A stretch of 64,000 bases of DNA, from assembly GCA_040767965.1 (NCBI GenBank), contig JAXGNR010000004.1, positions 96,001-160,000 on the forward strand, read 5' to 3'. Origin of the DNA: Atribacterota bacterium (lineage in GTDB: Bacteria > Atribacterota > Phoenicimicrobiia > Phoenicimicrobiales > Stramentimicrobiaceae). The translations under genes were made by a program, and so were the position numbers. Below, piece by piece: positions 22,752-61,691 of the stretch; position 1 is the first letter of the stretch; each line of letters starts with the position of its first letter. The notes under the pieces are model-generated. The model was not told the origin of the DNA, searched no databases, and saw only the letters and a program-made list of their open reading frames with translations.

Positions 22752-22787
22752 ATATTTTTTGTAGTTTTTATAAATAAGATAATATAG

Positions 22788-22831: not shown

Positions 22832-22869
22832 ACCTAAAACCAACAAAAACAAAAGGAGAGAAAAAAGAA

Positions 22870-23592: not shown

Positions 23593-23771
23593 CAAAGACT
23601 TAAAAGATATTCTGCCTGCAGATTGCAGCTGGTAATAATAGATGCAAGAGGGGGGGTGAAAGTAAATTATAAAATATTGTTAGTTAATACTAATTTTAAT
23701 TTTCATAATTTGTCAAATAAGTAATTTAAGTCACAATAATTTATAAAAGGTATTAAGGAGAGCAGAATAAA

Positions 23772-24737: not shown

Positions 24738-24816
24738 AATAATATTTTATAAAGATATTATAAGAAAAATGCTGTAATGTAAACAAACTTGTTAATCATC
24801 AAATTAAGAATTAACT

Positions 24817-24864
24817 TAGTATCAGATACCTGACAATAAAAAGTTGCCAGGTATCTGATACTAT
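24817..24864 (+). terminator. Hairpin after tctC (partial terminator or 3' stabiliser)
   Basis: TAGTATCAGATACCTG...CAGGTATCTGATACTA 16-bp stem. Confidence 0.7.
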
Positions 24865-24914
24865 CTCTATTACCAACACAAAAGGCAGTTTCCAATATAG
24901 GGAGGATGAACTGA

Positions 24915-25436: not shown

Positions 25437-25523
25437 TTTGCCTGTACTGTAATGACATGCTTATTGGTTTGAAGAGTAATTATGCTAAATATTTTTAATT
25501 AAAATTGGAGGAAAGTACTAGAT

Positions 25524-27026: not shown

Positions 27027-27079
27027 TAACTATAATTTTTAGTTACTAACTAAATAAAACAAAACTTTTTAATATAGTT

Positions 27080-27124
27080 TTAGGAAATAGTTGGTTTAAA
27101 GCAATTGCCCCAACTATTTCCTAA
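27080..27124 (+). terminator. Intergenic hairpin after tctA
   Basis: TTAGGAAATAGTTGG...CCAACTATTTCCTAA. Confidence 0.65.
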
Positions 27125-27143
27125 CTAAAAGAAGGAGAATTTT

Positions 27144-28091: not shown

Positions 28092-28219
28092 TTGACCCAA
28101 AAGAGAAAACGACAAACCCAATGAATTCAAGCAATTAGGGAGGTGATAAATAAAATTATTTTTAGGAATTAGTTGTACTAATTTCAATAACTCAAAAAAA
28201 TAAATAAAAGGAGAAGAAA

Positions 28220-29263: not shown

Positions 29264-29269
29264 AAGAAA

Positions 29270-29305
29270 AAATAAATAGGGCAGTGTACACTGCCCTATT
29301 TATTT
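29270..29305 (+). terminator. Hairpin after dctP
   Basis: Palindrome AAATAAATAGGGCAGTGTACACTGCCCTATTTATTT. Confidence 0.7.
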
Positions 29306-29345
29306 AATATGGCTTATAAAAATAGCAAATTGGAGGGGTATAATT

Positions 29346-29876
29346 TTGGTCAGCAAAGAAACGAAAGAAGAAAATAATTCATTAATCTTATTAAACAATA
29401 TTAGTAATGTAATAGAAAAAATTGCCATTTACTGCTGTGTATCTTTAATTGCCATCTTGCTAGTTATTGTTTTAGCCCAAATCACTTTAAGATGGATTGG
29501 TTTTTCAATTCCCTGGACTGAGGAATTATCCCGTTTTTTAATGATCTGGGCTGGCTTGCTAGGGGCTAGTGTTGCCTTTAAAAGGGGAAGCCATATCGGT
29601 GTAGAGGTAGTTGTAAATTTATTTCCTGCTAAAATAAAATTTGTTATTAATCTAATAATTAGATTGATCGTAATTATTTTTATAGTTTATTTTATTAAAT
29701 ATGGCTGGGATGTTGCCTTCAAGGCACTCAGAGTAAGGTCTCCGGGATTGGAAATATTAATGTTTTGGCCAAAGCTATCCCTGCCTGTTGGTGGAATGAT
29801 AATGCTTATCCAGGCTGTTTGTTTATTTTTTACAGAAATATTTACAGGCTCTAAAGAAAAGGAGATTAGCACATGA
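29346..29876 (+). CDS. dctQ: TRAP small permease DctQ
   Basis: WTEELSRFLMIW, HIGV; 4 TM segments. Confidence 0.92.
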   Translation: MVSKETKEENNSLILLNNISNVIEKIAIYCCVSLIAILLVIVLAQITLRWIGFSIPWTEELSRFLMIWAGLLGASVAFKRGSHIGVEVVVNLFPAKIKFVINLIIRLIVIIFIVYFIKYGWDVAFKALRVRSPGLEILMFWPKLSLPVGGMIMLIQAVCLFFTEIFTGSKEKEIST

Positions 29877-31159
29877 GTGGATTATTGTTTATCACATTTT
29901 TAATTACCCTTTTTTCAGGTATGCCCATTGCATTTGCTTTAGGAATAAGTGCTTTTGTGTTTTTTACCCAATGGGGCGGCGTGCCCATGGATGTAATTGC
30001 ACATCGGTTTTTTGATTCCATTAATCAGTTTGTGTTGTTATCTATTCCTTTTTTTATTCTGGCTGGAGAAATAATGAACAAAACCGGCATAACTAAAAAT
30101 TTAGTGGAATTTGCTTATATTTGTGTTGGGAAATTAAGAGGAGGATTAGCCCATGCTAATATTTTAGCCAGCATATTATTTGCTGGATTGACTGGAGCAG
30201 GAGTATCTGACACATCTGCTTTAGGTTCAATTTTAATTCCGGCAATGAAAGAAAAAGGATTTGAAGCTGATTACAGTGCAGCCGTAACTGCTGCTTCTTC
30301 AGTAATTGGGCCTATAATTCCTCCCAGTATAATAATGGTTGTTTTTGGTTCTATTATGGGAATATCCGTAGGATCATTATTTGCTGCCGGATTTGTGCCG
30401 GGAATTCTGATTGGAATCGGGTTAATGATAATGGCTTATATTATAAGCAGCAAAAGGGGACATCCCCGAAGAACAGAGCCTGTTAAACCAAAAGAATTTT
30501 TGATTGCTTTTAAAGATGCTTTTTTGGCCTTACTCATGCCAATCATAATCATCGGTGGTATTTTAGGGGGAGTCTTTACTCCCACTGAAGCTGCTGCTAT
30601 TGCAGTTGCTTATGGTCTTATTATAGGTTTTTTTGTTTATCGGACCTTAAAACTATCTGATTTGCCGGAATGTCTTTTGAAAAGTGCCATAACCACATCT
30701 ATCATACTTTTAATAATTGGTTTTGCCAATGTTTTTGGATGGGCATTGGCAATAGAACGCATTCCTCAACAGCTTGCCAGATTTTTTATTTCCATGGGAT
30801 TAAATAAAATTACATTTCTGCTGGTTGTCAATGGCTTATTACTCTTTATGGGAATGATTATGGAGACTGGAGCTAATGCAATTTTATTAGGACCTGTATT
30901 GATGCCGGTAGCAGTACAATTAGGAATAAATCCGTTGCATTTTGCCATGATAATGCTGGTAAACCTGAATATAGGTTTAGCGACCCCACCCTTGGGAGTA
31001 TGCCTATTTGTTGCAGCTCCAATTGCTGAAATATCTTTAGAAAAATTATCAAAAGCTATTTTCCCTTTTTTAGCAGTAGAGGTTATTGTTTTATTATTCC
31101 TTACATACATTCCAGAGCTGACTTTAATTGTTCCCAGATTGACTGGATTTATAGATTAA
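29873..31159 (+). CDS. dctM: TRAP large permease DctM
   Basis: IPFFILAG, GPIIPPSI, FTPTEAA, TPPLG. Confidence 0.95.
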   Translation: MSGLLFITFLITLFSGMPIAFALGISAFVFFTQWGGVPMDVIAHRFFDSINQFVLLSIPFFILAGEIMNKTGITKNLVEFAYICVGKLRGGLAHANILASILFAGLTGAGVSDTSALGSILIPAMKEKGFEADYSAAVTAASSVIGPIIPPSIIMVVFGSIMGISVGSLFAAGFVPGILIGIGLMIMAYIISSKRGHPRRTEPVKPKEFLIAFKDAFLALLMPIIIIGGILGGVFTPTEAAAIAVAYGLIIGFFVYRTLKLSDLPECLLKSAITTSIILLIIGFANVFGWALAIERIPQQLARFFISMGLNKITFLLVVNGLLLFMGMIMETGANAILLGPVLMPVAVQLGINPLHFAMIMLVNLNIGLATPPLGVCLFVAAPIAEISLEKLSKAIFPFLAVEVIVLLFLTYIPELTLIVPRLTGFID

Positions 31160-31242
31160 AATAATATAATAATATATTGAACTGTTATAATATTTTTATA
31201 GGATTAAACAGCTAGTGTTTTTAATATTAAACGAGGTGAATT

Positions 31243-32532
31243 ATGCTTAATGTAAATGAAGTAAAAATACCTGGCATTGAAAAAATAGAGCTCCCCTTGA
31301 TGATAAAAGTACAACAAATAATTCCCGATGATCATATAACAGATGTATCAATTACACTAAATAATGAAATGAATAGATTTTTAGAGAATAATAATAACAG
31401 TAATCCTTTTTTAAATAAAAAAGTTGCTATTACTGCTGGCAGTAGAGGGATAGACAGGATTGCAGAAGTAATAAAATCCCTTGTTGCTGAGATAAAATTA
31501 TTAGGAGGAAGCCCTTTTATTGTACCGGCAATGGGAAGTCATGGTGGTGGAGAAGCTGAAGCCCAGAAGGAAATACTGGCAAATTATGGTATTACTGAAG
31601 AGAAAATGGACGCAAAAATCGTATCTTCCTTGAAAGTTGAAAAGGTAGGAGAAACAAAAGACGGAATATCTGTTTTTGTTGATAGTGAATCCTTGCAGGC
31701 TGATGCAATTGTTGTTGTAAACAGAGTGAAAGTTCACACTGATTTTGCAGGTGATGTGGAAAGTGGCCTAATGAAGATGATGGCCATAGGATTAGGCAAA
31801 CATGTAGGCGCCTCAACATTACATTATTATGGTTTTGATTTGTTTTCTGAGCTTATTCCAGAAGTAGGATTGAAAATAATTGAAAAAACACCAATTGCAA
31901 TGGGAGTATCTTTAGTTGAAAATGCTTATGATAAATTATGTTTAATAAAAATTAGCAAACCAGTAGATTTTTATCAGGATGAAAAAGAATTGTTAAAAAT
32001 GCAAAAGAAATTAATGCCGGAAATTCCTTTTGAAGAGATAGATATCTTGATAGTTGATGAAATCGGGAAAGAAATCAGCGGTAGTGGAATGGACACGAAT
32101 GTGGTTGGTCGTTCAAAAAATATTGAAAAAAATATAAAAATAATTTTACCACTGGATTTAACTGATAGCTCTCATGGCAATGCTGCCGGAATTGGACTTG
32201 CAGATATCACCACAAAAAAACTATTCAACAAGATTGATTTTAATATAACCTACACTAATATATTAACATCAGGGAAACATCAGGGGGGAAGATTACCTAT
32301 AGTCTTAAAAGATGATGAGTTTGCAATTAAAACAGCCATGCGATTATTAAAGAAAAATAAAAAAGATATAAAACTAGTTAGAATAAAAAATACTTTGCAT
32401 ATTATTGAAATGGAAATATCTGAAAAATTAATAGAAGATATAAAAGATAATAATAAAGTAAGAATATTAGGTGAGTTAAAACAATTAAAAACTGATGATA
32501 AAGGTGATTTACTTTCTTACCCTTATGTTTAA
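31243..32532 (+). CDS. LarA-like (lactate racemase domain) hydroxyacid racemase/epimerase homologue
   Basis: TAGSRGI, PAMGSHGG, NRVKVHTDF, SGLMKMMAIGLGK, GKEISGSGMDTNV, GNAAGIG. Confidence 0.75.
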   Translation: MLNVNEVKIPGIEKIELPLMIKVQQIIPDDHITDVSITLNNEMNRFLENNNNSNPFLNKKVAITAGSRGIDRIAEVIKSLVAEIKLLGGSPFIVPAMGSHGGGEAEAQKEILANYGITEEKMDAKIVSSLKVEKVGETKDGISVFVDSESLQADAIVVVNRVKVHTDFAGDVESGLMKMMAIGLGKHVGASTLHYYGFDLFSELIPEVGLKIIEKTPIAMGVSLVENAYDKLCLIKISKPVDFYQDEKELLKMQKKLMPEIPFEEIDILIVDEIGKEISGSGMDTNVVGRSKNIEKNIKIILPLDLTDSSHGNAAGIGLADITTKKLFNKIDFNITYTNILTSGKHQGGRLPIVLKDDEFAIKTAMRLLKKNKKDIKLVRIKNTLHIIEMEISEKLIEDIKDNNKVRILGELKQLKTDDKGDLLSYPYV

Positions 32533-32610
32533 AGAAAGTACGCATAGAATGAAAAAGTATTTAACAGATAACTTTTTAAATTCTTCAAGACACAATTAGG
32601 AGGTAATTAC

Positions 32611-33384
32611 ATGGTGAATTCTTTAAAGGAAAAACTTTTAAAAGGGGAATGTGTTTTTGGTACGTGGATTGAAACCTCTAGTGTGGATAATGCCGAAATC
32701 CTGGCACAGGTAGGTGTTGATTTTATTATGATTGATGGTGAACACGGGGCAATGAATTTTGAAACAGCAGGTAAAATGATTTCTCAAATTAAATATACAA
32801 AAACTGTTCCGTTACTGAGAGTACCCTGGAATAACATAGATACTCTTAAGCAATATTTAGATACAGGAACTTCAGGAGTGATGATCCCGATGATTAATTC
32901 CAAAGAAGATGCCCTAAAAGCAGTTTCGTACTGCAATTACCCGCCTAAAGGAGTGAGAGGGTTTGGAATTGGCAGAAATACCTTATTTTCAGGGAAAATG
33001 ATGGAATATTTAAACTCTGTCTTAGAGGAGAATAACATAATAGTGATTGTTCAAATTGAACATATAGATGCTGTTAATAATATAGACGAAATACTTTCGG
33101 TTCCAGGTATAGACGTAGCTTTTATAGGCCCCTTTGATCTATCTGCTTCTATGGGTATTTTAGGTCGTATTGAACACCCAAAAGTCTTGGAAGCTATTGA
33201 TAAAGTTCTTTTATCCTGCAAAAAACATAATATAGTTTCAGGAATAATCACTACACCGGAAAAAATGAAACAGCATATTAGTCAGGGATTCAGAATGTTG
33301 TTGGCCGGAAATGATGGGCAATTTTTGTTTGAAGGTGGCCAGCAAATGGTTTCAGAATTCAAAAAAGCTTTACAAAATATTTAA
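32611..33384 (+). CDS. HpcH/HpaI class II pyruvate aldolase (GarL/RhmA-like)
   Basis: IDGEHG, LRVP, YPPKGVRG, QIE, FIGPFDLS. Confidence 0.92.
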   Translation: MVNSLKEKLLKGECVFGTWIETSSVDNAEILAQVGVDFIMIDGEHGAMNFETAGKMISQIKYTKTVPLLRVPWNNIDTLKQYLDTGTSGVMIPMINSKEDALKAVSYCNYPPKGVRGFGIGRNTLFSGKMMEYLNSVLEENNIIVIVQIEHIDAVNNIDEILSVPGIDVAFIGPFDLSASMGILGRIEHPKVLEAIDKVLLSCKKHNIVSGIITTPEKMKQHISQGFRMLLAGNDGQFLFEGGQQMVSEFKKALQNI

Positions 33385-41881: not shown

Positions 41882-43555
41882 ATGGATAGAAATAGCAATA
41901 AGGTTACACAGGGAGCAAGCAGGGCTCCACATCGTTCTTTGTTTTATGCGATGGGTTACACCCAGGAAGACATCAATAAACCAAATATTGGTATCGTTAA
42001 TGCTTTTAATGAAATTATTCCAGGTCATATCCAGTTAAATGATATAGTTCAATCAGTGAAAATGGGAGTTGCTGCAGCTGGTGGATTGCCAATGGAATTT
42101 CCTGCTATTGGTATTTGTGATGGAATAGCTATGAACCATCAGGGGATGAAATACCCTTTAGCCAGCAGAGAGCTAATTGCTGATTCAATTGAAGCAGTTG
42201 CCATGGCCCATCATTTTGACGGGTTGGTAATGGTGGCAAATTGTGACAAAATAGTGCCTGGAATGTTAATGGCCGCTGGCCGCTTAAATATCCCTGCAAT
42301 TTATGTAAGCGGAGGGCCAATGCTCGCAGGACAGCATGCAGGAAAAGATGTTGACTTATCAACAATGTTTGAAGCTGTTGGGCAATATAATCAGAAAAAA
42401 ATGACTAAAGAAGAATTAACTGCATTAGAATGCAGCGCATGCCCTACGGCTGGAAGTTGTTCAGGTTTGTTTACAGCTAATTCAATGAACTGTCTGTCAG
42501 AAGCATTAGGTATGGCTTTACCGGGAAACGGTACGATTCCAATAGGATATGGTGCCAGGAAGCAACTGGCCAATCAGGCTGGTAAGGCAATAATTAATTT
42601 AGTCAAAAACCAGATTAAACCCAGAGATATCATGACGGAAAAAGCTTTCCTCAATGCCATTACTCTCGATTTGGCCATGGCAGGATCAAGCAATACAGTT
42701 TTACATTTATTGGCAATTGCCCATGAGGCAGGCATTAAACTAGATTTAAAGACATTTGACAGGTTAAGCAGAATTATCCCGGTTTTAACAAAAATTTCTC
42801 CTTCCAGCAATTTACATATTGCGGATTTGTATTTTGCCGGAGGAATTCAGGCTATTTTGAAAGAGCTAGCAGATGCAAAACTTATCAATACTGAAGAAAT
42901 TACAGTAAGCGGAAGTAGTTTGGGTAAAAATATTGAATCAGCCAAAATAACAAATACTGATGTAATTAAAAAATACGAAAATCCTCTCAGTAAAGAAAGT
43001 GGAATTGCAGTATTGTATGGTAATTTAGCCCCCGAAGGTGGAGTTGTTAAGGTATCTGCTGTCAGTAAAAAAATGTACAGCTTTGAAGGACCGGCAAAAG
43101 TTTATAACTCAGAAGAAGAAGCCTATCAGGCAATTATGGACGGGAAAATAAAAAAAGGTAATGTCGTGGTAATCAGATACGAAGGACCAAAAGGCGGTCC
43201 TGGAATGCGTGAAATGCTGGCACCTACATCGGCTTTATGTGGTATGGAGTTAGATAATGATGTAGCCCTTCTTACTGATGGAAGATTTTCCGGAGCCACC
43301 AGGGGAGCAGCTATTGGTCATGTTTCTCCCGAAGCAGCAGAAAAAGGTCCTATTGGAATGATTGAAGATGGAGATATAATCAAAATTGACATTTCAAATA
43401 GAGAATTATCAGTTAAATTAACTGATGAGCAATTAAAGGAAAGAGAAGCAAAATGGGTTATGCCTGAAAACAATATCCCGTCTACATATTACTTAAAGCG
43501 ATATGCTTATTTAGTTACTTCAGCAAGCACAGGTGCAGTATTCAGAGAAGTATAA
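41882..43555 (+). CDS. ilvD: Dihydroxy-acid dehydratase
   Basis: [43 protein letters not shown]. Confidence 0.96.
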
Positions 43556-43608
43556 TGTTATATTCTCTAAATCACATAATTTTATAAAATAGATAATAAC
43601 TAATAAAT

Positions 43609-43655
43609 AAAATAATTAAAAAGGGGCATTAAAAATGCCCCTTTTTAATTATTTT
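43609..43655. terminator. Bidirectional terminator
   Basis: AAAATAATTAAAAAGGGGCAT...ATGCCCCTTTTTAATTATTTT. Confidence 0.85.
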
Positions 43656-43671
43656 AGGTTCAATTATTATA

Positions 43672-44490
43672 TTATAAATATATTTTTGGTTCTTTCCTCT
43701 TTTTCCCTATTATTTTTAAGGCAGATTTAATTAAAGGCATTTTTTTATAGGATATTTTACGAGCACTAAAAGGGCATAGTTTAACACAGGCAAAGCAGCG
43801 TATACATAATTTTTCACGACTTTTCAGACTTATTGGATCAATAGCATTCATTGGACAAACAGCCAGGCATTTTTTGCATTTTTGACATATATTTTTATCA
43901 ATTACTGGCGCATGGGTAATTAGAAGTTCGCTATGTTTTGGTAAAACCCTGTTAAATGTTAATAATTCTCCTTTTATTTCAAGATTGTTGATATTTTCCA
44001 TACCTTCATTTTGTTCTATTTTTTCTTTAATTTGTTTCCCAAAAGATTCTGCGAGGATTAAATCTTTTTTATCCGGTCTGCCGTCAGCAATTTTAATATC
44101 CTGATATGAGAATGAATGTTCACCGATAAAGGAAGCAGCGGCAATTATTTTAAATCCTTGAAACTGCATCATTTTTTTTAATTGCTGTAAGGCAATACCA
44201 GCGCTAATATTTCCATAGGTTACTACTAATACAATTGGTTGTCCCTGGCCTTTCATTTTAATAAGAGCCGGGTATAAAAGACTGGGAATTCTTTCTTCAT
44301 AAACAGGAATACCTAGTAGTATTGCCTCATTAATCTGGATATCAGGATTAAAGTTATGTCTTTCTATAAGTGAATTAAGGCTGATATTTTTTTGATTAGG
44401 GATATTCCATCCTTTGGCAATAGCATTAATTATTTTTTCAGTAGAATGTGTTGGAGAAAAATATATTTTTACTAATTTGTTTATATTCAC
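43672..44490 (-). CDS. Flavodoxin-like plus 2x[4Fe-4S] ferredoxin (EFR1 family)
   Basis: YFSPT, GRPD and two CxxCxxCxxxCP motifs; GTG start after GGAG. Confidence 0.85.
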   Translation of the reverse strand: MNINKLVKIYFSPTHSTEKIINAIAKGWNIPNQKNISLNSLIERHNFNPDIQINEAILLGIPVYEERIPSLLYPALIKMKGQGQPIVLVVTYGNISAGIALQQLKKMMQFQGFKIIAAASFIGEHSFSYQDIKIADGRPDKKDLILAESFGKQIKEKIEQNEGMENINNLEIKGELLTFNRVLPKHSELLITHAPVIDKNICQKCKKCLAVCPMNAIDPISLKSREKLCIRCFACVKLCPFSARKISYKKMPLIKSALKIIGKKRKEPKIYL

Positions 44491-44797
44491 TTTAATACTC
44501 CGCTGAAATGAAATCAAAACTGTAAATAAGTTGGCTGTATATTTATTGTAATAGAGTACATATTTTAAGACAAGGCAATTCCCGGATTATTACCAAAAAA
44601 ACCCTTCTTTTTATTAGTAATTAGTAAATTAATAATAGATACTAAATAAAATAAATAATAATTAAATTTTTTTAATTAGTTTTAATCATTTATTTAAGAT
44701 AGCTTAACAAATAATTTTTTGTTACAATTAAATCAATAATTTAACTATATTTGAAATTCTTAAAATATAAATTCAGGATAGAATACAGGAGGGGAAA

Positions 44798-45331
44798 ATG
44801 TTTTCTTTAATTAAAAAAAGAAGAAGTATCAGGGTATTTCAAAAAAGAAAAGTAGAAAAAGAAAAAATTAATCAGATTATGCAGGCCGCTTTAATGTCTC
44901 CATCGTCCAAAAACAACAATCCCTGGAAATTTATGATTATTGATGATCAAATTGCTCTGCAGAAAATATCGCAGGCAAAAAAGGCCGGTTCACAATTTTT
45001 AGCTAATTCCCCGCTGGCTATAGTGGTACTGGCAGATCCAGAGAGGTCGGATGTGTGGATCGAAGATTGCTCTATTGCCAGTACTTTTATCATTCTGGCA
45101 GCTCAAAATCTGGAACTGGGAAGCTGCTGGGTGCAGATTAGGAAAAGAGAACACGCGGATGGATCGAATGCAGAAGAATATATTAAAGAATTACTGGATA
45201 TTCCTAACCATTTACAAGTCCCGTGTGTTATAGCAATAGGCTATCCGGCAGAAGAAAAAGCAGATAAACAGGTTGCACAAGAAAAAATAAAAGATGTTTA
45301 TTATAATAAATATGGGAGAACATTCTTCTAG
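44798..45331 (+). CDS. Nitroreductase family protein
   Basis: RRSIR, SPSSKN..PW, LGSCWVQ, IGYP. Confidence 0.92.
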   Translation: MFSLIKKRRSIRVFQKRKVEKEKINQIMQAALMSPSSKNNNPWKFMIIDDQIALQKISQAKKAGSQFLANSPLAIVVLADPERSDVWIEDCSIASTFIILAAQNLELGSCWVQIRKREHADGSNAEEYIKELLDIPNHLQVPCVIAIGYPAEEKADKQVAQEKIKDVYYNKYGRTFF

Positions 45332-45376
45332 TATTTGTAACTTCTAAGGAAAATGATTGAGGGAGAATCAGGTATT

Positions 45377-46615
45377 ATGTCAGAAAAATTTGGTTTAGTA
45401 TTAGAAGGCGGCGGGGCAAAAGGAGCATATGAAATTGGTGCATGTGAGGCTATCTTTGAGATGGGAATTGAAATTTCTGCAGTTGCCGGCACCTCTGTTG
45501 GTGCTTTAAATGGAGCAATGATAGCCCAGCATGCAATAAAAGAAGCACATGACTTATGGTATAATATCAGCCCTTCTCAAATAATGAATATTGATGAAGG
45601 AAAATTGAAACAATTAGCCAGCTTAGAAATTAAACCTGGAGATATGAGCTATTTTCTGAAAATGTTTGGTGAATTGATATCTGAAGGAGGAATAGATGTT
45701 TCTCCTTTAAAAAGACTAATAAAAAAACATGTCAATGAAGATAAGCTGAGAAAGTCTCATATTGATCTGGGTATGGTAACAGTATCTTTTAGTGATAGAA
45801 AAGCGATAGAGGTATTTGTAGAGGATATACCATATGGTCAGGTTGCAGATTATCTTTTTGCCAGTGCTAATTTTCCTCTTTTTAGAACAGCTAAAATAGG
45901 TGACAAAATATTTTTAGATGGAGGAATATATGATAATCTTCCAATCAATATGTTGTTAAAAAAAGGATTTAAATCTCTTATTACAATCCAGGTGGGAGGA
46001 TTAGGAAGAAAGAGAAAAGTTGATTTGAGCAATCTGAATATTATAAATATAGAATCAAGAGAGAATTTGGGAGGACCTTTAAATTTTGACTCTGAGAAAA
46101 CAAGAAAAAACTTAAAATTAGGTTATTACGATGCATATCGGGTTGTAAAAAGCCTGACTGGAAATCTATATTACATTAACTTAGCAGGACAAGAAGATTC
46201 ATTTGTGGATTATTTTAAAAACCTGGATTTAGCAATTATTTCTAAAATTGCTAAAGTTCTTAATTTAAAAGAAAACATACCTCCCAAAAGATTGCTTTTT
46301 GAAAGAGTTATTCCCAAATTGATTGATGTATTAAAACTTCCTGCTGATTGTAAATATCAGGATATAGCTATAGCCTTAGCAGAAAGAATCGCTTTGCAGG
46401 TTGATGTAGAAAGATTTCAAATATATTCTTTCCAAGAATTCATTGAACAGATAATAAAAAATTATAAAACAGGTAAAACTAAGGCAACAAAAGAAAATAA
46501 CCTGATTTCACATTTTGGGTTTCTTTCTTTGTTCAGCAGTGATAATGTTCTAAAAAAAATTGTAGATGAACTATTAAATGAAAAATTAATGAAATCTCTG
46601 CATAAAATGACATAA
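45377..46615 (+). CDS. Patatin-like phospholipase
   Basis: GGGAKG, GTSVG, DGG. Confidence 0.9.
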   Translation: MSEKFGLVLEGGGAKGAYEIGACEAIFEMGIEISAVAGTSVGALNGAMIAQHAIKEAHDLWYNISPSQIMNIDEGKLKQLASLEIKPGDMSYFLKMFGELISEGGIDVSPLKRLIKKHVNEDKLRKSHIDLGMVTVSFSDRKAIEVFVEDIPYGQVADYLFASANFPLFRTAKIGDKIFLDGGIYDNLPINMLLKKGFKSLITIQVGGLGRKRKVDLSNLNIINIESRENLGGPLNFDSEKTRKNLKLGYYDAYRVVKSLTGNLYYINLAGQEDSFVDYFKNLDLAIISKIAKVLNLKENIPPKRLLFERVIPKLIDVLKLPADCKYQDIAIALAERIALQVDVERFQIYSFQEFIEQIIKNYKTGKTKATKENNLISHFGFLSLFSSDNVLKKIVDELLNEKLMKSLHKMT

Positions 46616-46651
46616 AAGTAAAAATTCTAAAATTGAATAAGAGGTTTGCTT

Positions 46652-48550
46652 ATGTATTTAAAGACTGATTTTTGCCAAAAAGCACTACTGGTTGATGTTG
46701 GTACAAAATTTTATCGCATTGATCGTTTTCAGGTTGGAGATTACTTTGGTCCCCCTGATCTGGGTTTATATCTTTCCGGTAAATATAATAGCTTGAATAT
46801 AGGAACAGGCTTATTAGCTGGTTCTATTTTTCCCGGCTCTAACAGATTGTTTTTTAGTGGGTTCTCACCTTGCTGGGGCGGATTTTATATTTCTTCCATG
46901 GGGGGAGCTGGATTAGTTTTTGATAACCTGGGAATAAATATGTTTTCTATTATCGGCTGGGCAAAGACTCCCTCTGTTCTTTATTTAAACCGGGTTCATG
47001 GAGAAGAGATAAAAGTTGATATTGTTCCTCTGGATTTATATTCAGCATGGCAAACCGGAGAAGGAGGGATATACTCTTTAATGGATTATACTTATAAGCA
47101 ATTTGGTTCTCAATATAAAAAAGAACCGCGCATTTTGGCAACCGGTCCAGCTTCCGAGGTAACTGATTTTGGAGCAATATGTTCTGCTCCTATCCAAAAT
47201 GGAAAAATTAGTCCGGTTGATACCTGGGCAGGCAGAGGAGGTTTTGGAACTAAAATGCTGCAGCAGCATAATATTGCTGCCGTAATTTATGGAGGAACAT
47301 ATGTTGATGAGGATTTTAGGGATAGGAAAGTAGCTGACCAGTGGTTTGAAAATAAATATAATGAAAAGATGGCCGCCAAAGACATTGAAGCTACAGCAAA
47401 ATATCGCTTTGAAGAAAATTTTGGAACTGGTGGCACATTTGGCGTAAATTATGCAACTATTAATGGTAGAATGCTTTCTTTTAATTATCGCAGTATTTAT
47501 TTCGATGAAGAAACAAGGAATAAAATACATCAACAGTTTATTTTAAATCATTATTTAAAACAGTTTAATGAAGAAACAATTCAAACTAAAAATCAAAAAA
47601 CTTGCGGTGAACCCTGTGCTGCTGTCTGTAAAAAAATGAGAGATATTTACAAAAAGGATTATGAGCCTTATCAGGCGTTAGGCCCTCTATGTGGTATTTT
47701 TGATCAAAGAGCAGCAGAAAAACTAGTGCGTCATGCAGATATGTATGGTTTTGACTCCATTGCAATTGGCGGGGTTTTGGCCTGGTTGTTTGATTGTGTT
47801 GACAAAAATCTCTTATCCCCTGCTGATTTAAACATAAAGGATAAACCTGTTTTTGATATAAAAAACTTCAATATTGAAGCTGACTCAATGCATAATGCTA
47901 ATCTGGGAGTTGAATTATTAGATAAAATAATTAATCGTGAACAGTTTTTAGATTTAGGCCAGGGTGCCCGAGAATTAGCAAAAAAGTTAAGCCTAAAAAA
48001 GAATTCCCAGATAATTCATAATTTCATTTATAGTTCTTTCGCTAAAAGAGGATGGATGGTCCCAAATCAGTACTGGACTCCCGGAGTTCTATCTCCAATG
48101 GCTATAATGGGGAAATATTATATGTTCTATGGGGATGACTTTATTCCTCCACGTGAACTGGGGAGAACTAATGCTTTTCGTTTCAAAAAAGAGCTGATGC
48201 TTGATATGTTTGGAATTTGTCGTTTTCATCGGAAATGGGCAGAAGAAATGATTCCTGAAATCATCGGGTCTTTGTTTGATTTAAAAGACGTGTTTTTAGA
48301 AAAAGTACATAGTACTGCTTGTCATATTAATAGCAGAAATGCATCTACCTTCTGGGAAACAGATAGAAGCATAGATTTTATTTATGCTTTCTTAAAAAGA
48401 AAAAAAGAGGTAGAAAATGATAATAATAAAGAGCTTCTCCGCTGGATAGAATATTTTGAAAAAGATAAGAAGGAAGCAGCCATCGACTTTTGGTATGAGA
48501 TGCATAAAGGGATGACTGAATCCTTACATGATACCATATGCCTGAAATAG
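46652..48550 (+). CDS. AOR-family (W/Mo-pterin) oxidoreductase, GAPOR-like
   Basis: AGSIFPGSNRL, SSMGGAG, WAGRGGFG, KYR...GGTFG.NY, TCGEPC..VCKK, YEPY..LGP, CRFHR.W. Confidence 0.78.
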   Translation: MYLKTDFCQKALLVDVGTKFYRIDRFQVGDYFGPPDLGLYLSGKYNSLNIGTGLLAGSIFPGSNRLFFSGFSPCWGGFYISSMGGAGLVFDNLGINMFSIIGWAKTPSVLYLNRVHGEEIKVDIVPLDLYSAWQTGEGGIYSLMDYTYKQFGSQYKKEPRILATGPASEVTDFGAICSAPIQNGKISPVDTWAGRGGFGTKMLQQHNIAAVIYGGTYVDEDFRDRKVADQWFENKYNEKMAAKDIEATAKYRFEENFGTGGTFGVNYATINGRMLSFNYRSIYFDEETRNKIHQQFILNHYLKQFNEETIQTKNQKTCGEPCAAVCKKMRDIYKKDYEPYQALGPLCGIFDQRAAEKLVRHADMYGFDSIAIGGVLAWLFDCVDKNLLSPADLNIKDKPVFDIKNFNIEADSMHNANLGVELLDKIINREQFLDLGQGARELAKKLSLKKNSQIIHNFIYSSFAKRGWMVPNQYWTPGVLSPMAIMGKYYMFYGDDFIPPRELGRTNAFRFKKELMLDMFGICRFHRKWAEEMIPEIIGSLFDLKDVFLEKVHSTACHINSRNASTFWETDRSIDFIYAFLKRKKEVENDNNKELLRWIEYFEKDKKEAAIDFWYEMHKGMTESLHDTICLK

Positions 48551-48607
48551 TTTAATTGGCCTAAAATGTTTTTAAATTATTTTAAGTTAATCAGGAGGTG
48601 TGGATAT

Positions 48608-49420
48608 ATGAATTTCAAATATTTATCTCAAAAAATTGCCAGTAAATTGCTGGAAATTCCTTTCAAATGGAATTCCCGGTTAGCAGTATTAGAACTTTCA
48701 AAAGACTGCTATGCAGGATGGGAGCAGAGCGAGTGGTTGGATTTTTATTTCCGCTATTTGTGCGAAAAGTATTTGCCTGATTATATTCCGATGCATGATA
48801 AGGTTTGTGGAACCACATTTTTTGATGGAATACATGACCTATCTCCTGATTTTGGCGAGAAAATATTTCCTCCCAATCCAGGTCAAGATTTGAAAGACAA
48901 ATCTTCTGATTTTAACAGAGAATTTACCCTTGCTTACAGCAACTACCAGCACTGGCGACAAATGGAGTGGATAGAAAGTTATTTTTCTTATTTATGCGTG
49001 AAACATCTTTCAGGTTTTTTAAAAATTCCCGGTCCAAGATATAAAAAAAGGAGTTTTGATGGATTTTTGGAAATTCCCTGGCTGTTTAAAGTATTTATTG
49101 AAAATACTGGCAATAAAAATATAATACTTGCAGATGCAGACTTGATGGTTAAAGGAATATCAAAATACGAGAAAATTGGTATTGTTGTTGCAGAAGGAAG
49201 AGCAGAATATTATAAGGAAAAAGCAGATAAGAATATGAGACAAAATTCTATGTTCATTTTAAAGAACATTTTTATTTTGCCTTTTACAGCTGATGTAATG
49301 CAAAAATGCAAAACATTTCAGTTAGCAGGTATCAAGACAGGGAATGGTTTACCTGAAAAAATATTATTAGATATTGCTATTATAAGAGAAAGGACTGTCA
49401 GTTTACAAAAATATTCTTAA
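48608..49420 (+). CDS. Hypothetical protein with internal duplication, restriction-endonuclease-like
   Basis: AGGAGG RBS; two copies of WxQxEW..YF.YLC.K.L followed by F(F)DG; IPWLFK. Confidence 0.55.
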   Translation: MNFKYLSQKIASKLLEIPFKWNSRLAVLELSKDCYAGWEQSEWLDFYFRYLCEKYLPDYIPMHDKVCGTTFFDGIHDLSPDFGEKIFPPNPGQDLKDKSSDFNREFTLAYSNYQHWRQMEWIESYFSYLCVKHLSGFLKIPGPRYKKRSFDGFLEIPWLFKVFIENTGNKNIILADADLMVKGISKYEKIGIVVAEGRAEYYKEKADKNMRQNSMFILKNIFILPFTADVMQKCKTFQLAGIKTGNGLPEKILLDIAIIRERTVSLQKYS

Positions 49421-49475
49421 TTTATTTGTATAAAAATAACTAAAAACCCAAATTAAACATATAAAGAGAGGAAAT

Positions 49476-50765
49476 ATGTTAAATCAAATAGGTAGAGACA
49501 TTTTCTCAGAAATTTGTAAAATGGAAATTATTGATACCCATGAACATATTATGAGTCAGGAAGAAGTTAAAGAAGAAGTTGTTCACTTATTTAAAGTTTT
49601 TGAAAATTCTTATGCAAATCTTGATTTGATTTCAGCTGGAATGTCTCCAGATATCTGGGAAAAGAAAAATTTAGTAGAAATTTGGGAAGAGTTTAAAAAA
49701 TATCAGCCTCATGTATTATTAACTACTTTTGTAAAAAATATATTATATTCTTTGAAAGAATTATATGGGTTAAATACTGGAGAAATAAAAGAAGACAATT
49801 ATCAGGAAATTTCTGAAAAAATAACTGATTCTTATAACTCAAATAATTGGTATAAGTATGTTCTGAAAGAAAAAGCAAACATAAAAATATCAATGCTGGA
49901 TGCTTTTTGGAATGTAGAAAATTTTAACTATGACCGGGAACTTTTTATTCCTGTATTAAGGACCAATGCTTTTATTTTAGGAAGAGAATATAGCTCGCCA
50001 TTTCCTAAGGGAAAATGGGCACATTCAACAATAGAAAGTATCTCTGAAGCATGGGGAGTAAGTATTGATGATTTTGAATCCTATTTAGAAATCATTAAAT
50101 TAGCAATTAAAAAATATAAAAAAATTGGATGCCCAGCTGTCAAGATCGGGACCGCCTATCATAGGTCTCTCTACTTTGAAAAGACAGATAAAAGAGAAGC
50201 AGCTGTTATTTACAAAAAAGATCCTAAAAGAATTAGTTTGTCTGAACAAAAAAAGCTGCAGGATTTTATGGCACATTATATTATCCATCAGGCGACTTCT
50301 GCAGAAATGGCGGTTCAAATACACACAGGTACTTTTGCCCGTAATGGCAGCATAATAGAAAACGGCAATCCTGAACAATTGAATAATTTATTTTTGGAAT
50401 ACCCCTCAACAAGATTTTCATTATTTCATTTCTCTTATCCTTATACCAGTCAGGTTTTCAGTTTAGCTAAAATGTTTTCCAATGTTGTTCTGGACTTTTG
50501 CTGGGTTCCGATGATTTCTGAGAATTTTGCCAAAAAATCATTGACAGAATTCTTAGACTTGATTCCTAGCAATAAACTGATGTGGGGTGGAGATTCCTAT
50601 AGAGTCGAAGAAGCCTTTGGTGGGGCGCATTTGTGCAGGAAGGTAATCTCTGAGGTTTTATCTGAAAAGGTCAAAGAAAGAAGTATTACTCAAGGAAAAG
50701 CCTTAAAAATTGCTCAAGATATTTTATTTAATAACGCACGGCAATTTTATCAGTTAAAAATATAG
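49476..50765 (+). CDS. Amidohydrolase superfamily protein (uronate isomerase/lactonase-like)
   Basis: IIDTHEH, QIHTG, LFHFSYPY, WGGD, NARQFY. Confidence 0.85.
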   Translation: MLNQIGRDIFSEICKMEIIDTHEHIMSQEEVKEEVVHLFKVFENSYANLDLISAGMSPDIWEKKNLVEIWEEFKKYQPHVLLTTFVKNILYSLKELYGLNTGEIKEDNYQEISEKITDSYNSNNWYKYVLKEKANIKISMLDAFWNVENFNYDRELFIPVLRTNAFILGREYSSPFPKGKWAHSTIESISEAWGVSIDDFESYLEIIKLAIKKYKKIGCPAVKIGTAYHRSLYFEKTDKREAAVIYKKDPKRISLSEQKKLQDFMAHYIIHQATSAEMAVQIHTGTFARNGSIIENGNPEQLNNLFLEYPSTRFSLFHFSYPYTSQVFSLAKMFSNVVLDFCWVPMISENFAKKSLTEFLDLIPSNKLMWGGDSYRVEEAFGGAHLCRKVISEVLSEKVKERSITQGKALKIAQDILFNNARQFYQLKI

Positions 50766-60725: not shown

Positions 60726-61691
60726 ATGTTAAAAAGAATTGCTGTTATGACCAGTGGGGGAGATTCTCCTGGTATGAATGGTGCTATCAGGGCTGTTGTA
60801 CGTACCGGTATATTTTATGGTCTAGAAGTTTATGGTATTAAATATGGTTATCAGGGTCTGCTGGATAAGAATATAGCTGAAATGGATTTGAAAAGTGTTG
60901 GTGGTATTATGCAACTAGGAGGAACTATTTTAATGACATCCCGCAGCGATGAATTTGAAACCAAAGCCGGAGTTAAAAAAGGGGCAAACATTTTAAGAGA
61001 ATTTAATATTGATGCCCTGGTGGTAATTGGTGGAGATGGTTCTTTGGCTGGAGCCAGAGACCTGTATGAGCAGGAAGATTTCCCGGTTATTGGTATACCA
61101 GCCACTATTGATAATGATCTATATGGCACCGATACCTGCATTGGTGTTGATACTGCCTTGAATACAATTATTTCCGCAATTGATAAGATTAAAGATACAG
61201 CCTCTTCGCATCGCCGAGCCTTTATGCTGGAAGTAATGGGTCGAAATTCAGGTTATCTAGCCTTAATGAGTGGCATTGCCGGTGGAGCAGAGGCAGTAAT
61301 TGTTCCAGAATTTCCAGTGGATATTGACAAAATGGGAGAACAATTAAATAAAGGATACCAGAGAGGGAAATCCCATTGTTTGTTTGTGATGGCTGAAGGG
61401 GCAGGAGATGTTTATGCAGTCAGTAAAGCTATCAGTGAAAAAGTTGGATTTCAAATAAGAGTAACAATTTTAGGACACCTGCAAAGAGGAGGTTCTCCTT
61501 CGGTTTTCGATCGTATTTTATCAAGCAGATTAGGATCTGAAGCAGTAATACAACTTTTGGAAAATAAATACCATCACATGGTTGGCTTAATTGGCAATGA
61601 TACTAAGGTAACTCCTTTAGAGAATATTTTAACCAAAAAGAAAGAACTTCGTAAATCTTTATATAAGTTAGCTAATATCCTTGCCCAATAG
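60726..61691 (+). CDS. pfkA: ATP-dependent 6-phosphofructokinase
   Basis: TSGGDSPGMN, GGDGS, TIDND, MGR, LGHLQRGG. Confidence 0.95.
   Translation: MLKRIAVMTSGGDSPGMNGAIRAVVRTGIFYGLEVYGIKYGYQGLLDKNIAEMDLKSVGGIMQLGGTILMTSRSDEFETKAGVKKGANILREFNIDALVVIGGDGSLAGARDLYEQEDFPVIGIPATIDNDLYGTDTCIGVDTALNTIISAIDKIKDTASSHRRAFMLEVMGRNSGYLALMSGIAGGAEAVIVPEFPVDIDKMGEQLNKGYQRGKSHCLFVMAEGAGDVYAVSKAISEKVGFQIRVTILGHLQRGGSPSVFDRILSSRLGSEAVIQLLENKYHHMVGLIGNDTKVTPLENILTKKKELRKSLYKLANILAQ

What the first reader, a model, noticed from the sequence alone, without database searches (positions are those of the whole stretch)
46652..48550. Bacterial homologue of archaeal GAPOR (glyceraldehyde-3-phosphate:ferredoxin oxidoreductase)
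Seen: motifs AGSIFPGSNRL, SSMGGAG, WAGRGGFG..LQQHN, KYR..GTGGTFGVNY, TCGEPCAAVCKK, YEPYQALGP and CRFHRKW. Recalled knowledge: these match, in the same order, the single-subunit GAPOR of Thermococcales/Methanococcales (AGS.LPGSHRL, STMGGAG, WAARGG, TCGEPC..VCKK, CRFHRGW) rather than ordinary AOR/FOR. GAPOR is regarded as mainly archaeal and differs from the two-subunit GOR of Caldicellulosiruptor. Inference: with pgi and ATP-pfkA in the window, this bacterium may run Embden-Meyerhof glycolysis with a ferredoxin-reducing, non-phosphorylating GAP step that favours H2 production. An Fe-S/flavodoxin gene lies about 2 kb upstream.
Basis: partly seen in the sequence, partly recalled or inferred. Interest (0 to 1): 0.72.

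Follow-up and report, generated by a model that had tools for sequence, protein, structure and literature searches.

The report
Bacterial GAPOR-lineage tungsten oxidoreductase gene
This Atribacterota gene encodes an intact, stand-alone tungsten/molybdenum-pterin iron-sulfur enzyme related to the archaeal glycolytic enzyme GAPOR, but it belongs to a large bacterial sister branch that databases already label GAPOR and that nobody has assayed.

Summary
An intact 632-aa gene (46652-48550, +) carries all nine quoted motifs. It has the AOR-superfamily domains. Its only NCBIfam hit is the archaeal GAPOR model, at 325 bits against a cut-off of 1300 that only Thermococcus passes.

Two trees put it in a tight bacterial clade (100% support) inside a 35-row clade. 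That clade lies next to, not inside, the group spanning Thermococcales, Methanococcales and Thermoproteales, the lineages of the assayed GAPORs. It keeps the four Fe-S cysteines, the Thr/Glu second shell and a set of GAPOR-specific basic residues: 76 conserved columns shared with the classical clade, 8 fixed differences.

The clade is widespread: 544 confirmed matches among species genomes, the best 80 spanning 17 named phyla. It is patchy within Atribacterota (12 of 86 genomes) and has no conserved neighbours. GAPDH/PGK, pterin synthesis, WtpA and an [FeFe]-hydrogenase are present in this genome.

The most likely function is ferredoxin-linked glyceraldehyde-3-phosphate oxidation, as an optional bypass (about 0.55). 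Substrate specificity is untested. JGI already names close relatives GAPOR, and this scan reached the same reading twice before on Bacteroidota genomes.

The parts
46640..46644 (+). Shine-Dalgarno-like AGAGG, 7 nt before the ATG at 46652
   Evidence: Read directly from the sequence. It supports 46652 rather than the TTG at 46646 as the start.
46652..48550 (+). GAPOR-lineage AOR-superfamily gene: 632 aa, 72.4 kDa, stop codon included
   Evidence: AlphaFold2 mean pLDDT 94.2. Foldseek finds only AOR-family structures at E <= 0.001 (9 hits, query-normalised TM 0.61-0.65).
46778..47296 (+). N-terminal AOR domain (residues 43-215). It includes the PGSNRL, SSMGGAG and WAGRGGFG pterin-side motifs.
   Evidence: Pfam PF02730, 58.2 bits. 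R65, G84, G85, R195, G197 and G199 are conserved in both the classical and the bacterial clades.
47378..47992 (+). The part of the catalytic domains that still matches the Pfam AFOR_C model (residues 243-447, profile positions 8-195 of 385)
   Evidence: Pfam PF01314, 71.3 bits. It contains second-shell T262 and E338, which are also T and E in all four own-genome AORs.
47600..47635 (+). TCGEPCAAVCKK: three [4Fe-4S] cysteine ligands (C318, C322, C326) with GAPOR-type C-x3-C-x3-C spacing, followed by K327 and K328
   Evidence: These columns are Cys in all four own AORs, and three of the four have a gap at the extra residue (G319 column reads --Y-). They are invariant in alignment A1.
47660..47686 (+). 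YEPYQALGP, carrying E338. This is the counterpart of the conserved second-shell Glu (Glu313 in P. furiosus AOR numbering, as given in PMC12096430).
   Evidence: It aligns to the DYE of FOR 1b25. The column is E in all rows of both clades and in the four AORs.
47993..48547 (+). C-terminal region that Pfam's AOR model does not match (residues 448-632), with GAPOR-lineage residues Y474, W475, Y489, Y493 and E514
   Evidence: A review states that the GAPOR clade shows no detectable similarity to other family members in the region of the usual Tyr/His second shell (PMC12096430, passage read).
48218..48238 (+). CRFHRKW: the fourth cluster cysteine (C523), followed by R524, H526 and R527. These basic residues are specific to the GAPOR lineage.
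   Evidence: C523 is Cys in all AORs. R524, H526 and R527 are conserved at >=90% in both clades, where the own AORs have M/K, T/F/I and G/M/I.
44798..50765 (+). Co-directional, tightly spaced gene string around the gene: nitroreductase, patatin-like lipase, the GAPOR-like gene, an unknown 284-aa ORF and an amidohydrolase-like gene. This is context only.
   Evidence: No terminator-like site lies in the intergenic gaps; four + strand sites lie inside coding sequence. The four ORFs upstream (ilvD, EFR1 ferredoxin, nitroreductase, patatin) recur in 4 of 4 Atribacterota loci, window included, and not in other phyla.

Best explanation
The gene encodes a cytoplasmic, single-subunit oxidoreductase of the AOR/WOR superfamily. 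It carries one tungsten (or molybdenum) bis-pyranopterin cofactor and one [4Fe-4S] cluster.

It belongs to the GAPOR lineage, in a bacterial branch that lies beside the branch of the assayed archaeal enzymes. The most likely reaction is oxidation of D-glyceraldehyde-3-phosphate to 3-phosphoglycerate without phosphate, passing two electrons through the cluster to a ferredoxin.

In this Atribacterota cell that would be an optional, ATP-sacrificing bypass of GAPDH plus PGK. It would make low-potential reduced ferredoxin, which the [FeFe]-hydrogenase can turn into H2.

Shown here: the fold, the cofactor-ligand residues, the lineage, and the presence of cofactor supply and of the EMP genes searched for, from pgi to pgk (gap frameshifted as assembled). 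Inferred: the substrate, the electron acceptor, the metal and the physiological role.
For: - Family: Pfam AFOR_N and AFOR_C match. The only NCBIfam hit is GAPOR_Arch NF040818 at 324.9 bits, where this genome's ordinary AORs reach 30.8-36.8 bits.
- Tree: the 64 GAPOR-like rows separate from the 4 own AORs with 100% support under both models.
- Active site: C318, C322, C326 and C523, T262 and E338 are conserved. 76 columns are >=90% conserved and identical in the classical clade (20 rows) and the bacterial clade (17 rows), against 8 fixed differences. The shared set includes basic residues absent from the AORs, namely K250, R289, R440, R524, H526 and R527. These are plausible binders of a phosphate group.
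- Signature: keeping Thr and Glu while the Tyr/His region is unalignable is what the review reports for the GAPOR clade (PMC12096430, passage read).
- Model: mean pLDDT 94.2. The only structural matches at E <= 0.001 are AOR-family enzymes.
- No second-subunit gene: no polyferredoxin gene lies among 5 ORFs on either side here, and none appears among the 15 relatives' neighbour-cluster representatives scanned, out of the 30 largest neighbour clusters from 55 relatives' loci.
- Genome support: moaA, moaC, moaB/mogA and two moeA genes; WtpA at 292.1 bits against a 242.75 cut-off; pgi, pfkA, two fba, tpi and pgk; an [FeFe]-hydrogenase large subunit; no GAPN-like aldehyde dehydrogenase, best Aldedh hit 51.8 bits.
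Against: - Position: the protein is outside the smallest clade holding Thermococcus, Methanococcales and Thermoproteales rows (19 rows) in both trees. Function is therefore extrapolated across a deep split, at 31-35% identity to the five classical-clade rows compared.
- Score: its NF040818 score of 325 is about half the lowest classical-clade score measured (565-1377).
- Fixed differences: two of the eight sit in pterin-side motifs, H to N at position 64 in PGSHRL and D to T at 191 before WAGRGG.
- No linkage to glycolysis: the largest neighbour cluster occurs in 6 of 56 loci. None of the 15 relatives' neighbour-cluster representatives scanned, nor the 6 window neighbours, is glycolytic.
- Patchy in the phylum: 12 of 86 genomes carry it, and two relatives hold decayed copies.
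- Carriers: by record title, many belong to taxa I recall as non-saccharolytic (Geobacter/Geomonas, Leptospira, Kuenenia, NC10). That fits a plain sugar-fermentation role poorly.
- No GAPOR structure is solved, so the phosphate-binding residues are conjecture.
- No assay of any member of this bacterial clade was found in the literature searches.
Confidence: 0.55

Rival explanations
1. The fold and cofactors are the same, but the substrate differs. On this reading the bacterial branch oxidises some other anionic or phosphorylated aldehyde, or reduces the matching acid with reduced ferredoxin. The GAPOR label would then be an annotation carried over from the archaeal branch.
For: It sits in a neighbouring clade rather than the assayed one. 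There are eight fixed differences, two of them in pterin-side motifs. It has no linkage to glycolytic genes. It is an accessory gene in the phylum. It is present in lineages that, from my own recall, do not ferment sugars (record titles). The WOR classification paper says only 5 of 92 WOR clades have a member with a defined physiological role (PMC13328260, abstract).
Against: 76 of 84 doubly conserved columns are identical to the classical clade, including all GAPOR-specific basic residues found. No alternative substrate is suggested by any neighbour. Identity of 57-79% across 17 named phyla suggests a universal metabolite as substrate, but this is inference.
Confidence: 0.3
2. It is a broad-spectrum aldehyde:ferredoxin oxidoreductase used for aldehyde detoxification or amino-acid fermentation, like classical AORs.
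For: It belongs to the AOR superfamily. NCBI records name close relatives only generically, as 'aldehyde ferredoxin oxidoreductase'.
Against: The genome already holds five ordinary AOR paralogues and one decayed copy. This protein is only about 20% identical to them and lacks the alignable Tyr/His second-shell region. The AOR model covers only half of the C-terminal domains.
Confidence: 0.08
3. It is a non-functional or cofactor-less remnant.
For: Two relatives in the phylum carry fragments with many stops (G079, G084).
Against: The frame is intact and all four Cys ligands and the pterin motifs are present. The model is confident. The Atribacterota orthologues listed are 74-79% identical. Short near-identical contigs from two metatranscriptome studies lie on the gene, which is a weak hint only.
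Confidence: 0.02

Closest known systems
[quoted passage not shown]
   Same: Single subunit of about 63-72 kDa. AFOR_N and AFOR_C domains. C-x3-C-x3-C...C cluster ligands. Thr/Glu second shell without the usual Tyr/His region. CKK, DYEP, KYR and CRFHR motifs. 76 shared conserved columns. Both belong to one superclade, apart from the AORs.
   Different: It lies in a neighbouring clade, not inside the group spanning the assayed lineages. Identity is 31-35% (five classical-clade rows compared), against 40-48% among three classical-clade rows compared with each other. NF040818 gives 325 bits against 565-1377. There are eight fixed residue differences. By the run labels, the organism is found in landfill, digester and wastewater metagenomes rather than in the hot habitats I recall for most archaeal carriers. 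Nothing from this clade has been assayed.
GOR of Caldicellulosiruptor bescii (bacterial GAP:ferredoxin oxidoreductase; WOR clade 20, Class II)
   Same: The proposed reaction is the same, in a bacterium that also keeps GAPDH (PMC13328260 and PMC12096430, passages read).
   Different: GOR has a second, polyferredoxin subunit, keeps all four second-shell residues, and forms an unrelated clade (PMC12096430, passage read). Here no such subunit gene lies nearby, and only Thr and Glu are kept. No GOR sequence was available to place in my trees.
Uncharacterised bacterial proteins that JGI/IMG names 'glyceraldehyde-3-phosphate dehydrogenase (ferredoxin)'. One example is drawn as GAPOR in a published Margulisbacteria metabolic map (PMC6349859).
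   Same: JGI gives this name to proteins 65-79% identical to the window protein. The window protein is therefore a member of an already catalogued clade.
   Different: Nothing of substance. The label rests on homology only. I did not check whether the Margulisbacteria protein itself belongs to this clade.
Classical AOR, FOR and WOR5 (PDB 1aor, 1b25, 6x1o)
   Same: Overall fold (query-normalised TM 0.63-0.65 to these three), pterin and cluster ligands.
   Different: 14-18% identity over the nine AOR-family structural matches (15-18% to these three). The C-terminal domains are divergent. The residues around the active site differ.

Membership tests
AOR/WOR superfamily (tungsto- or molybdo-pterin aldehyde oxidoreductases) | AFOR_N plus AFOR_C domains and the AOR fold | tested here: met
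   Pfam gives 58.2 and 71.3 bits, both over their cut-offs. Foldseek finds 9 hits at E <= 0.001, all AOR-family, with query-normalised TM 0.61-0.65.
AOR/WOR superfamily | Four cysteine ligands for one [4Fe-4S] cluster, and the pterin-binding RGG.G and D..G.C motifs | tested here: met
   C318, C322, C326 and C523 align to Cys in all four own AORs. R195, G197 and G199 are conserved. The motifs were read.
Archaeal GAPOR (EC 1.2.7.6) | Score over the NCBIfam NF040818 equivalog cut-off (1300 bits) | tested here: not met
   324.9 bits. The cut-off is passed only by the Thermococcus row (1377). Methanococcales (600-677), Thermoproteales (750) and Thermogladius (565) also fail it, as does the M. jannaschii control. 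Failing it is therefore weak evidence against membership.
Archaeal GAPOR (EC 1.2.7.6) | A branch position inside the clade bounded by the assayed enzymes' lineages (Thermococcales, Methanococcales, Thermoproteales) | tested here: not met
   It is outside the 19-row core in both trees. It sits in a 35-row neighbouring clade supported at 97 (SH-aLRT) and 99/96. The assayed proteins themselves were not in the tree; MAG or genome relatives of their lineages stood in for them.
Archaeal GAPOR (EC 1.2.7.6) | GAPOR-type active-site signature: C-x3-C-x3-C spacing, Thr and Glu kept, no alignable Tyr/His region, and the CKK and CRFHR basic motifs | tested here: met
   The signature is as described in PMC12096430 (passage read).
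Archaeal GAPOR (EC 1.2.7.6) | Single catalytic subunit with no partner subunit gene | tested here: met
   No conserved neighbour (at most 6 of 56 loci share one). No polyferredoxin gene lies within 5 ORFs in the window.
Archaeal GAPOR (EC 1.2.7.6) | Specific oxidation of D-glyceraldehyde-3-phosphate with ferredoxin as acceptor | not testable with these tools
   This needs an anaerobic enzyme assay. No GAPOR structure exists for mapping the substrate site.
GOR (Caldicellulosiruptor type, Class II WOR) | An adjacent gene for a small subunit with four [4Fe-4S] clusters | tested here: not met
   The neighbours are a patatin-like lipase and an unknown ORF. The nearest Fe-S gene (EFR1 type, two clusters) is 2.1 kb away on the other strand.
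GOR (Caldicellulosiruptor type, Class II WOR) | All four second-shell residues (Thr, Glu, Tyr, His) conserved | tested here: not met
   Only T262 and E338 align. The AOR model does not match beyond residue 447.

The most novel reading that the evidence does not exclude
The bacterial sister clade of GAPOR may be a true, tungsten- or molybdenum-dependent GAP:ferredoxin oxidoreductase that has spread by gene transfer through mesophilic anaerobes of at least 17 phyla. Its carriers include lineages that, as far as I recall, do not ferment sugars (Geobacter/Geomonas, Leptospira, anammox Kuenenia, NC10).

In those organisms its main job would not be glycolysis. It would run a 'GAPOR cycle' with GAPDH and PGK, which amounts to an ATP-driven transfer of electrons from NAD(P)H to ferredoxin. 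This cycle has been demonstrated genetically in Methanococcus maripaludis (PMC3585446).

If true, this would overturn the textbook split of 'GAPOR in Archaea, GOR in Bacteria'. It would also add a widespread route to low-potential electrons.
Probability: 0.2. Interest if true: 0.75.

Novelty: new member of a known kind. Interest (0 to 1): 0.42.

Why it matters
Two recent reviews describe GAPOR as archaeal or largely archaeal (PMC12096430; PMC12525153, which also notes homologs in some bacterial species), and PMC12096430 gives GOR as the bacterial counterpart. The sequence data show a large, highly conserved bacterial branch of the GAPOR lineage in mesophilic anaerobes. It is labelled GAPOR by homology alone.

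If it does oxidise glyceraldehyde-3-phosphate, metabolic models of many uncultured anaerobes gain a ferredoxin-reducing step in central carbon metabolism. That step costs ATP and depends on tungsten or molybdenum, and it bears on H2 yields in digesters and landfills. If it does not, the label given to these proteins in the databases is wrong.

For this window alone the finding is ordinary: one more member of that branch.

Tried and rejected
1. Gene neighbourhood as a clue to function. I clustered 487 ORFs from 55 relatives' loci plus the window. No cluster occurs in more than 6 loci. None of the 15 relatives' cluster representatives scanned, nor the 6 window neighbours, is glycolytic or a ferredoxin subunit. 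L112 gave no target ORF and was dropped.

2. A solved GAPOR structure, to map the substrate site. None is in the PDB copy, by sequence or by profile, and Foldseek adds none.

3. The clade number in the 92-clade WOR scheme. The text gives only PfGAPOR = clade 23. Supplement Table_2, part 1, held only lists of tree nodes. Table_1 could not be read because it is too large, and it may hold the answer. The PNAS 2021 paper is not held.

4. Literature on bacterial members.
- 'GAPOR' with 'Atribacteria': 0 papers.
- The full enzyme name with 'Atribacter': 0 papers.
- 'GAPOR-like': 1 paper, on archaea.
- 'K11389': 2 papers, seen as listings only and neither on enzymology by its title.
- One search was badly framed: it asked for any 2 of 6 terms, and none of the 15 listed papers holds GAPOR.

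5. Rooting inside the GAPOR-like superclade. The root falls in different places under LG+C20 PMSF and LG+G4. I therefore make no claim about which branch is ancestral.

6. Expression. Only short contigs (181-262 nt, depth 2-4) from metatranscriptome runs of two studies lie on the gene. DNA carry-over cannot be excluded, and uncovered parts mean nothing.

7. Whether the gap frameshift is real. A genome-wide scan found 11 junctions of this kind at homopolymer runs, out of 1193 runs, so a rare assembly error remains likely.

8. Complex prediction with the EFR1 ferredoxin was considered and not run, because I do not claim that the two bind.
Full report
**Observation.**
An open frame runs 46646..48550 on the + strand. 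The ATG at 46652 is preceded by AGAGG at a 7-nt spacing, so it is the likely start. The product has 632 residues, 72.4 kDa and 11 cysteines. All nine motifs quoted in the finding are present, in the stated order, at residues 56-66, 81-87, 192-199, 203-207, 250-252, 258-267, 317-328, 337-345 and 523-529.

**What family it is.**
- Pfam finds the two AOR-superfamily domains. AFOR_N scores 58.2 bits over residues 43-215. AFOR_C scores 71.3 bits but covers only residues 243-447, which is profile positions 8-195 of 385.
- NCBIfam gives a single hit, the archaeal GAPOR equivalog NF040818, at 324.9 bits against a cut-off of 1300.
- I calibrated that cut-off on named rows:

| Row | NF040818 bits |
|---|---|
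| Thermococcus | 1377 |
| Desulfurobacteriaceae MAG | 1011 |
| Thermoproteales | 750 |
| Methanothermococcus | 677 |
| Methanocaldococcus | 600 |
| Thermogladius | 565 |
| Woesearchaeota | 412 |
| Two close bacterial relatives | 324 and 347 |

- This genome's ordinary AOR paralogues reach 30.8-36.8 bits on the same model, and the M. jannaschii control also stays under the cut-off.
- The cut-off therefore picks out Thermococcales only. The window protein lies well below every classical-clade row and far above the AORs.
- By sequence the PDB holds only distant AOR, FOR, WOR5, WOR83 and BamB relatives and no GAPOR.
- An AlphaFold2 model built on a 43-row alignment is confident, with mean pLDDT 94.2 and pTM 0.94.
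- Foldseek finds 9 chains at E <= 0.001. All are AOR-family, at query-normalised TM 0.61-0.65 and 14-18% identity.

**Relatives.**
- The word-indexed search returned 3172 proteins at E <= 0.001 among the 8000 candidates scored. The 120 listed include the query itself; the other 119 are 65-80% identical, mostly about 624-630 aa (a few up to 663 aa).
- Where they carry a name, they come from Atribacterota, Zixibacteria, Desulfobacteraceae, Bacteroidales, Vecturithrix, Auribacterota and others.
- JGI names many of them 'glyceraldehyde-3-phosphate dehydrogenase (ferredoxin)'. NCBI names them generically.
- The exhaustive search over 50%-identity representatives gave 553 proteins at E <= 0.001 and 164 at E <= 1e-30.
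- I picked 57 full-length representatives. All 57 have NF040818 as their best NCBIfam hit, and for 56 it is the only one. Scores run from 60 to 858 bits.
- Look-ups named one cluster as Thermoprotei/Desulfurococcales GAPOR and the nearest non-bacterial representative (47% identity) as Woesearchaeota.
- The best 80 are 57-79% identical. 79 are bacterial by record title and 1 is unplaced. They span 17 named phyla, led by Spirochaetota (23), Thermodesulfobacteriota (12), Bacteroidota (8) and Atribacterota (5). Eight rows carry no phylum.
- A profile search led by an archaeal-type sequence returned 484 of 599 matches. Its best 80 are 47 archaeal and 33 bacterial.

**Phylogeny.**
- I built trees of 68 rows:
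  - the window protein;
  - 6 named close relatives;
  - 35 proteins translated from named loci (14 near-duplicate loci were left out);
  - 22 unnamed representatives;
  - 4 AOR paralogues of this genome as outgroup.
- Under LG+C20 PMSF (short search, SH-aLRT) and under LG+G4 (full search, UFBoot/SH-aLRT), the 64 GAPOR-like rows separate from the AORs at 100.
- The window protein pairs with an Atribacterota protein (100). It lies in a 17-row, all-bacterial clade with a long stem (100; 100/100).
- That clade is nested in a 25-row, mostly bacterial group (98; 97/85). This in turn lies in a 35-row clade (97; 99/96) whose basal members are archaeal: an unclassified archaeon, Methanosarcinales and Woesearchaeota.
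- The smallest clade holding Thermococcus, Methanocaldococcus and Thermoproteales rows has 19 rows (96; 56/97). It does not contain the window protein in either tree.
- The root inside the superclade moves between the two models, so I draw no conclusion about which branch is older.
- The assayed enzymes themselves were not available as sequences. Relatives from their lineages stood in for them.
- Within the 17-row clade the branching does not follow the phyla: Atribacterota sits beside Bacteroidales, and Zixibacteria beside Ignavibacteria. This points to gene transfer.

**Active site.**
- In the 68-row alignment, 76 columns are >=90% conserved and identical in the classical clade (20 rows) and the bacterial clade (17 rows). 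Only 8 are conserved in both but different.
- The shared set holds the cluster ligands C318, C322, C326 and C523, which are Cys in all four AORs. There is a one-residue insertion in the first loop, giving C-x3-C-x3-C.
- It also holds second-shell T262 and E338 and the pterin-side R195-G-G-x-G.
- It further holds residues that the AORs lack: H206, K250, Y251, R289, R440, Y474, W475, Y489, Y493, E514, R524, H526, R527 and W529.
[quoted passage not shown] The window protein fits that description.
- The cluster of conserved basic residues is a reasonable candidate for binding a phosphate group. No structure exists to test this.
- The eight fixed differences are H64N, F70G, Y88L, D191T, T491M, A504G, Y562R and P565S. 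H64N lies in PGSHRL and D191T lies before WAGRGG.
- Identity to the five classical-clade rows compared is 30.9-34.5%. Among three classical rows it is 39.8-48.1%. To this genome's own AORs it is about 20%.

**Context.**
- The gene sits in a co-directional string: nitroreductase, patatin-like lipase, the gene, an unknown 284-aa ORF and an amidohydrolase-like ORF. No terminator-like site lies in the gaps between these genes; four + strand sites fall inside coding sequence.
- The four upstream ORFs (ilvD, EFR1 ferredoxin on the other strand, nitroreductase, patatin) recur in 4 of 4 Atribacterota loci, counting the window. Nothing recurs across phyla: the largest neighbour cluster is found in 6 of 56 loci.
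- The 15 relatives' cluster representatives scanned are housekeeping or signalling proteins where they match any family (two match none), and none is glycolytic.
- pgi at 1733-3373 and pfkA at 60726-61691 are real. They lie about 43 kb and 12 kb away.

**The genome.**
- It is 2.33 Mb in 30 contigs, 98% complete.
- It holds five other AOR-family genes and one decayed copy.
- It has a moeA-moeA-moaA-moaC-moaB cluster and WtpA at 292.1 bits against a 242.75 cut-off.
- It has an [FeFe]-hydrogenase large subunit, pgk, tpi and two class II aldolases.
- It has no GAPN-like aldehyde dehydrogenase; the best Aldedh hit is 51.8 bits.
- The gap gene, next to tpi, is split by one extra A in an A8 run. It is the only split copy among the 22 family genomes, of which 19 have gap over the cut-off.
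- Genome-wide, 11 such junctions occur at 1193 homopolymer runs. I judge an assembly error more likely than a real loss, but I could not check it.
- In the phylum, 12 of 86 genomes carry the GAPOR-like gene at E <= 1e-50. Among high-quality genomes the count is 7 of 43. Two relatives hold fragments full of stops.
- The gene is therefore accessory and sits beside GAPDH. It is not a replacement for it.

**Occurrence and expression.**
- Near-identical DNA is held by runs labelled landfill, digester, bioreactor, soil, sludge, leachate and wastewater metagenomes. 20 rows hold at least part of the stretch, from 14 studies.
- Short contigs with 0-3 differences from metatranscriptome runs of two studies lie on the gene, for example 46633-46878 and 46741-46939. 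This is only a weak hint of transcription.

**Interpretation.**
- The protein is an intact member of the GAPOR lineage with a GAPOR-type active-site signature. The genome has cofactor supply, the EMP genes searched for, from pgi to pgk (gap frameshifted as assembled), and a ferredoxin sink.
- The most economical reading is ferredoxin-linked, non-phosphorylating oxidation of glyceraldehyde-3-phosphate as an optional bypass. I put this at about 0.55.
- The main rival, at about 0.3, is a different anionic aldehyde or acid substrate. The grounds are that the branch is separate from the assayed one, unlinked to glycolysis, patchy, and present in lineages I recall as non-saccharolytic.
- A precedent for a non-glycolytic role exists. 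In M. maripaludis, GAPOR together with GAPDH and PGK forms an ATP-driven route from NAD(P)H to ferredoxin (PMC3585446, passages read). That is my most novel reading for the bacterial clade.

**Comparison with what is in print.**
- PMC12096430 places GAPOR in Archaea and GOR in Bacteria (passages read).
- PMC13328260 puts PfGAPOR in WOR clade 23 and notes that only 5 of 92 clades have a defined role (abstract and passages). Its large supplementary table could not be read.
- A Margulisbacteria paper already draws GAPOR in a bacterial metabolic map (PMC6349859, figure legend).
- I found no assay of a member of this bacterial clade in searches.
- This scan noted the same clade twice before, in Bacteroidota genomes, with the same reading. 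My trees, calibration and residue counts agree with those notes and were made independently here.

**Verdict.**
The 'mainly archaeal' framing and the glycolytic role are only partly supported. The gene is a new member of a catalogued but uncharacterised bacterial branch. Its interest lies in the branch as a whole rather than in this copy.

Noticed in passing
own genome contig C5:228192-229161 (outside the window): The only GAPDH gene (gap, just upstream of tpi) is split into two frames by one extra A in an A8 run. It is intact in 19 of 22 genomes of the same family. This is either a rare homopolymer assembly error or a strain that truly lacks GAPDH. If the loss is real, the GAPOR-like enzyme would be essential for glycolysis.
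   Followed up: partly
own genome contig C4:762876-763985 (outside the window): A decayed AOR-family gene, in pieces across several frames with TAG, TGA and TAA stops. It lies beside five intact AOR paralogues elsewhere in the genome.
   Followed up: no
window 20278-33384: A co-directional island: Zn-alcohol dehydrogenase, DHDPS-like and RraA-like aldolases, a TctABC transporter, a 2-hydroxyacid dehydrogenase, a TRAP transporter, an unknown 429-aa ORF and an HpcH/HpaI aldolase. G+C is raised to 0.386-0.395 at 22-28 kb, against about 0.32 around it. It may be an acquired organic-acid or sugar-acid catabolic island.
   Followed up: no
window 41882-46615: The block ilvD, EFR1-family ferredoxin (minus strand), nitroreductase and patatin-like lipase precedes the GAPOR-like gene in 4 of 4 Atribacterota loci and in no other phylum. 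Whether the EFR1 ferredoxin is the enzyme's electron acceptor is unknown.
   Followed up: partly
window 48566-49420: A 284-aa ORF 16 nt downstream of the gene has no Pfam or NCBIfam match. It recurs at +1 or +2 in 3 Atribacterota loci, counting the window.
   Followed up: no
L033:3001-5031: A Desulfurobacteriaceae (Aquificota) MAG carries a classical-type GAPOR scoring 1011 bits on NF040818. It is sister to the Thermococcus rows at 100% support. This is a bacterial copy inside the classical archaeal clade, distinct from the window's clade.
   Followed up: partly
relatives G079 and G084 (same family as the window's genome): Fragments 57-68% identical to the window protein, several carrying stop codons (up to 8-9 in one piece). 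These are decaying copies of a GAPOR-like gene. G084 also has an intact copy at 74% identity.
   Followed up: no
own genome, 10 further places (for example C4:326724, C4:559782, C6:137662): Pairs of long open frames abut in different frames at A/T runs of 8 or more, or G/C runs of 6 or more. These are candidate homopolymer frameshifts or natural overlaps. They were not inspected individually.
   Followed up: no
window 43609-43655 (minus strand): A strong terminator-like hairpin (20-pair stem, then a T-rich tail) lies just after the EFR1 ferredoxin gene.
   Followed up: no
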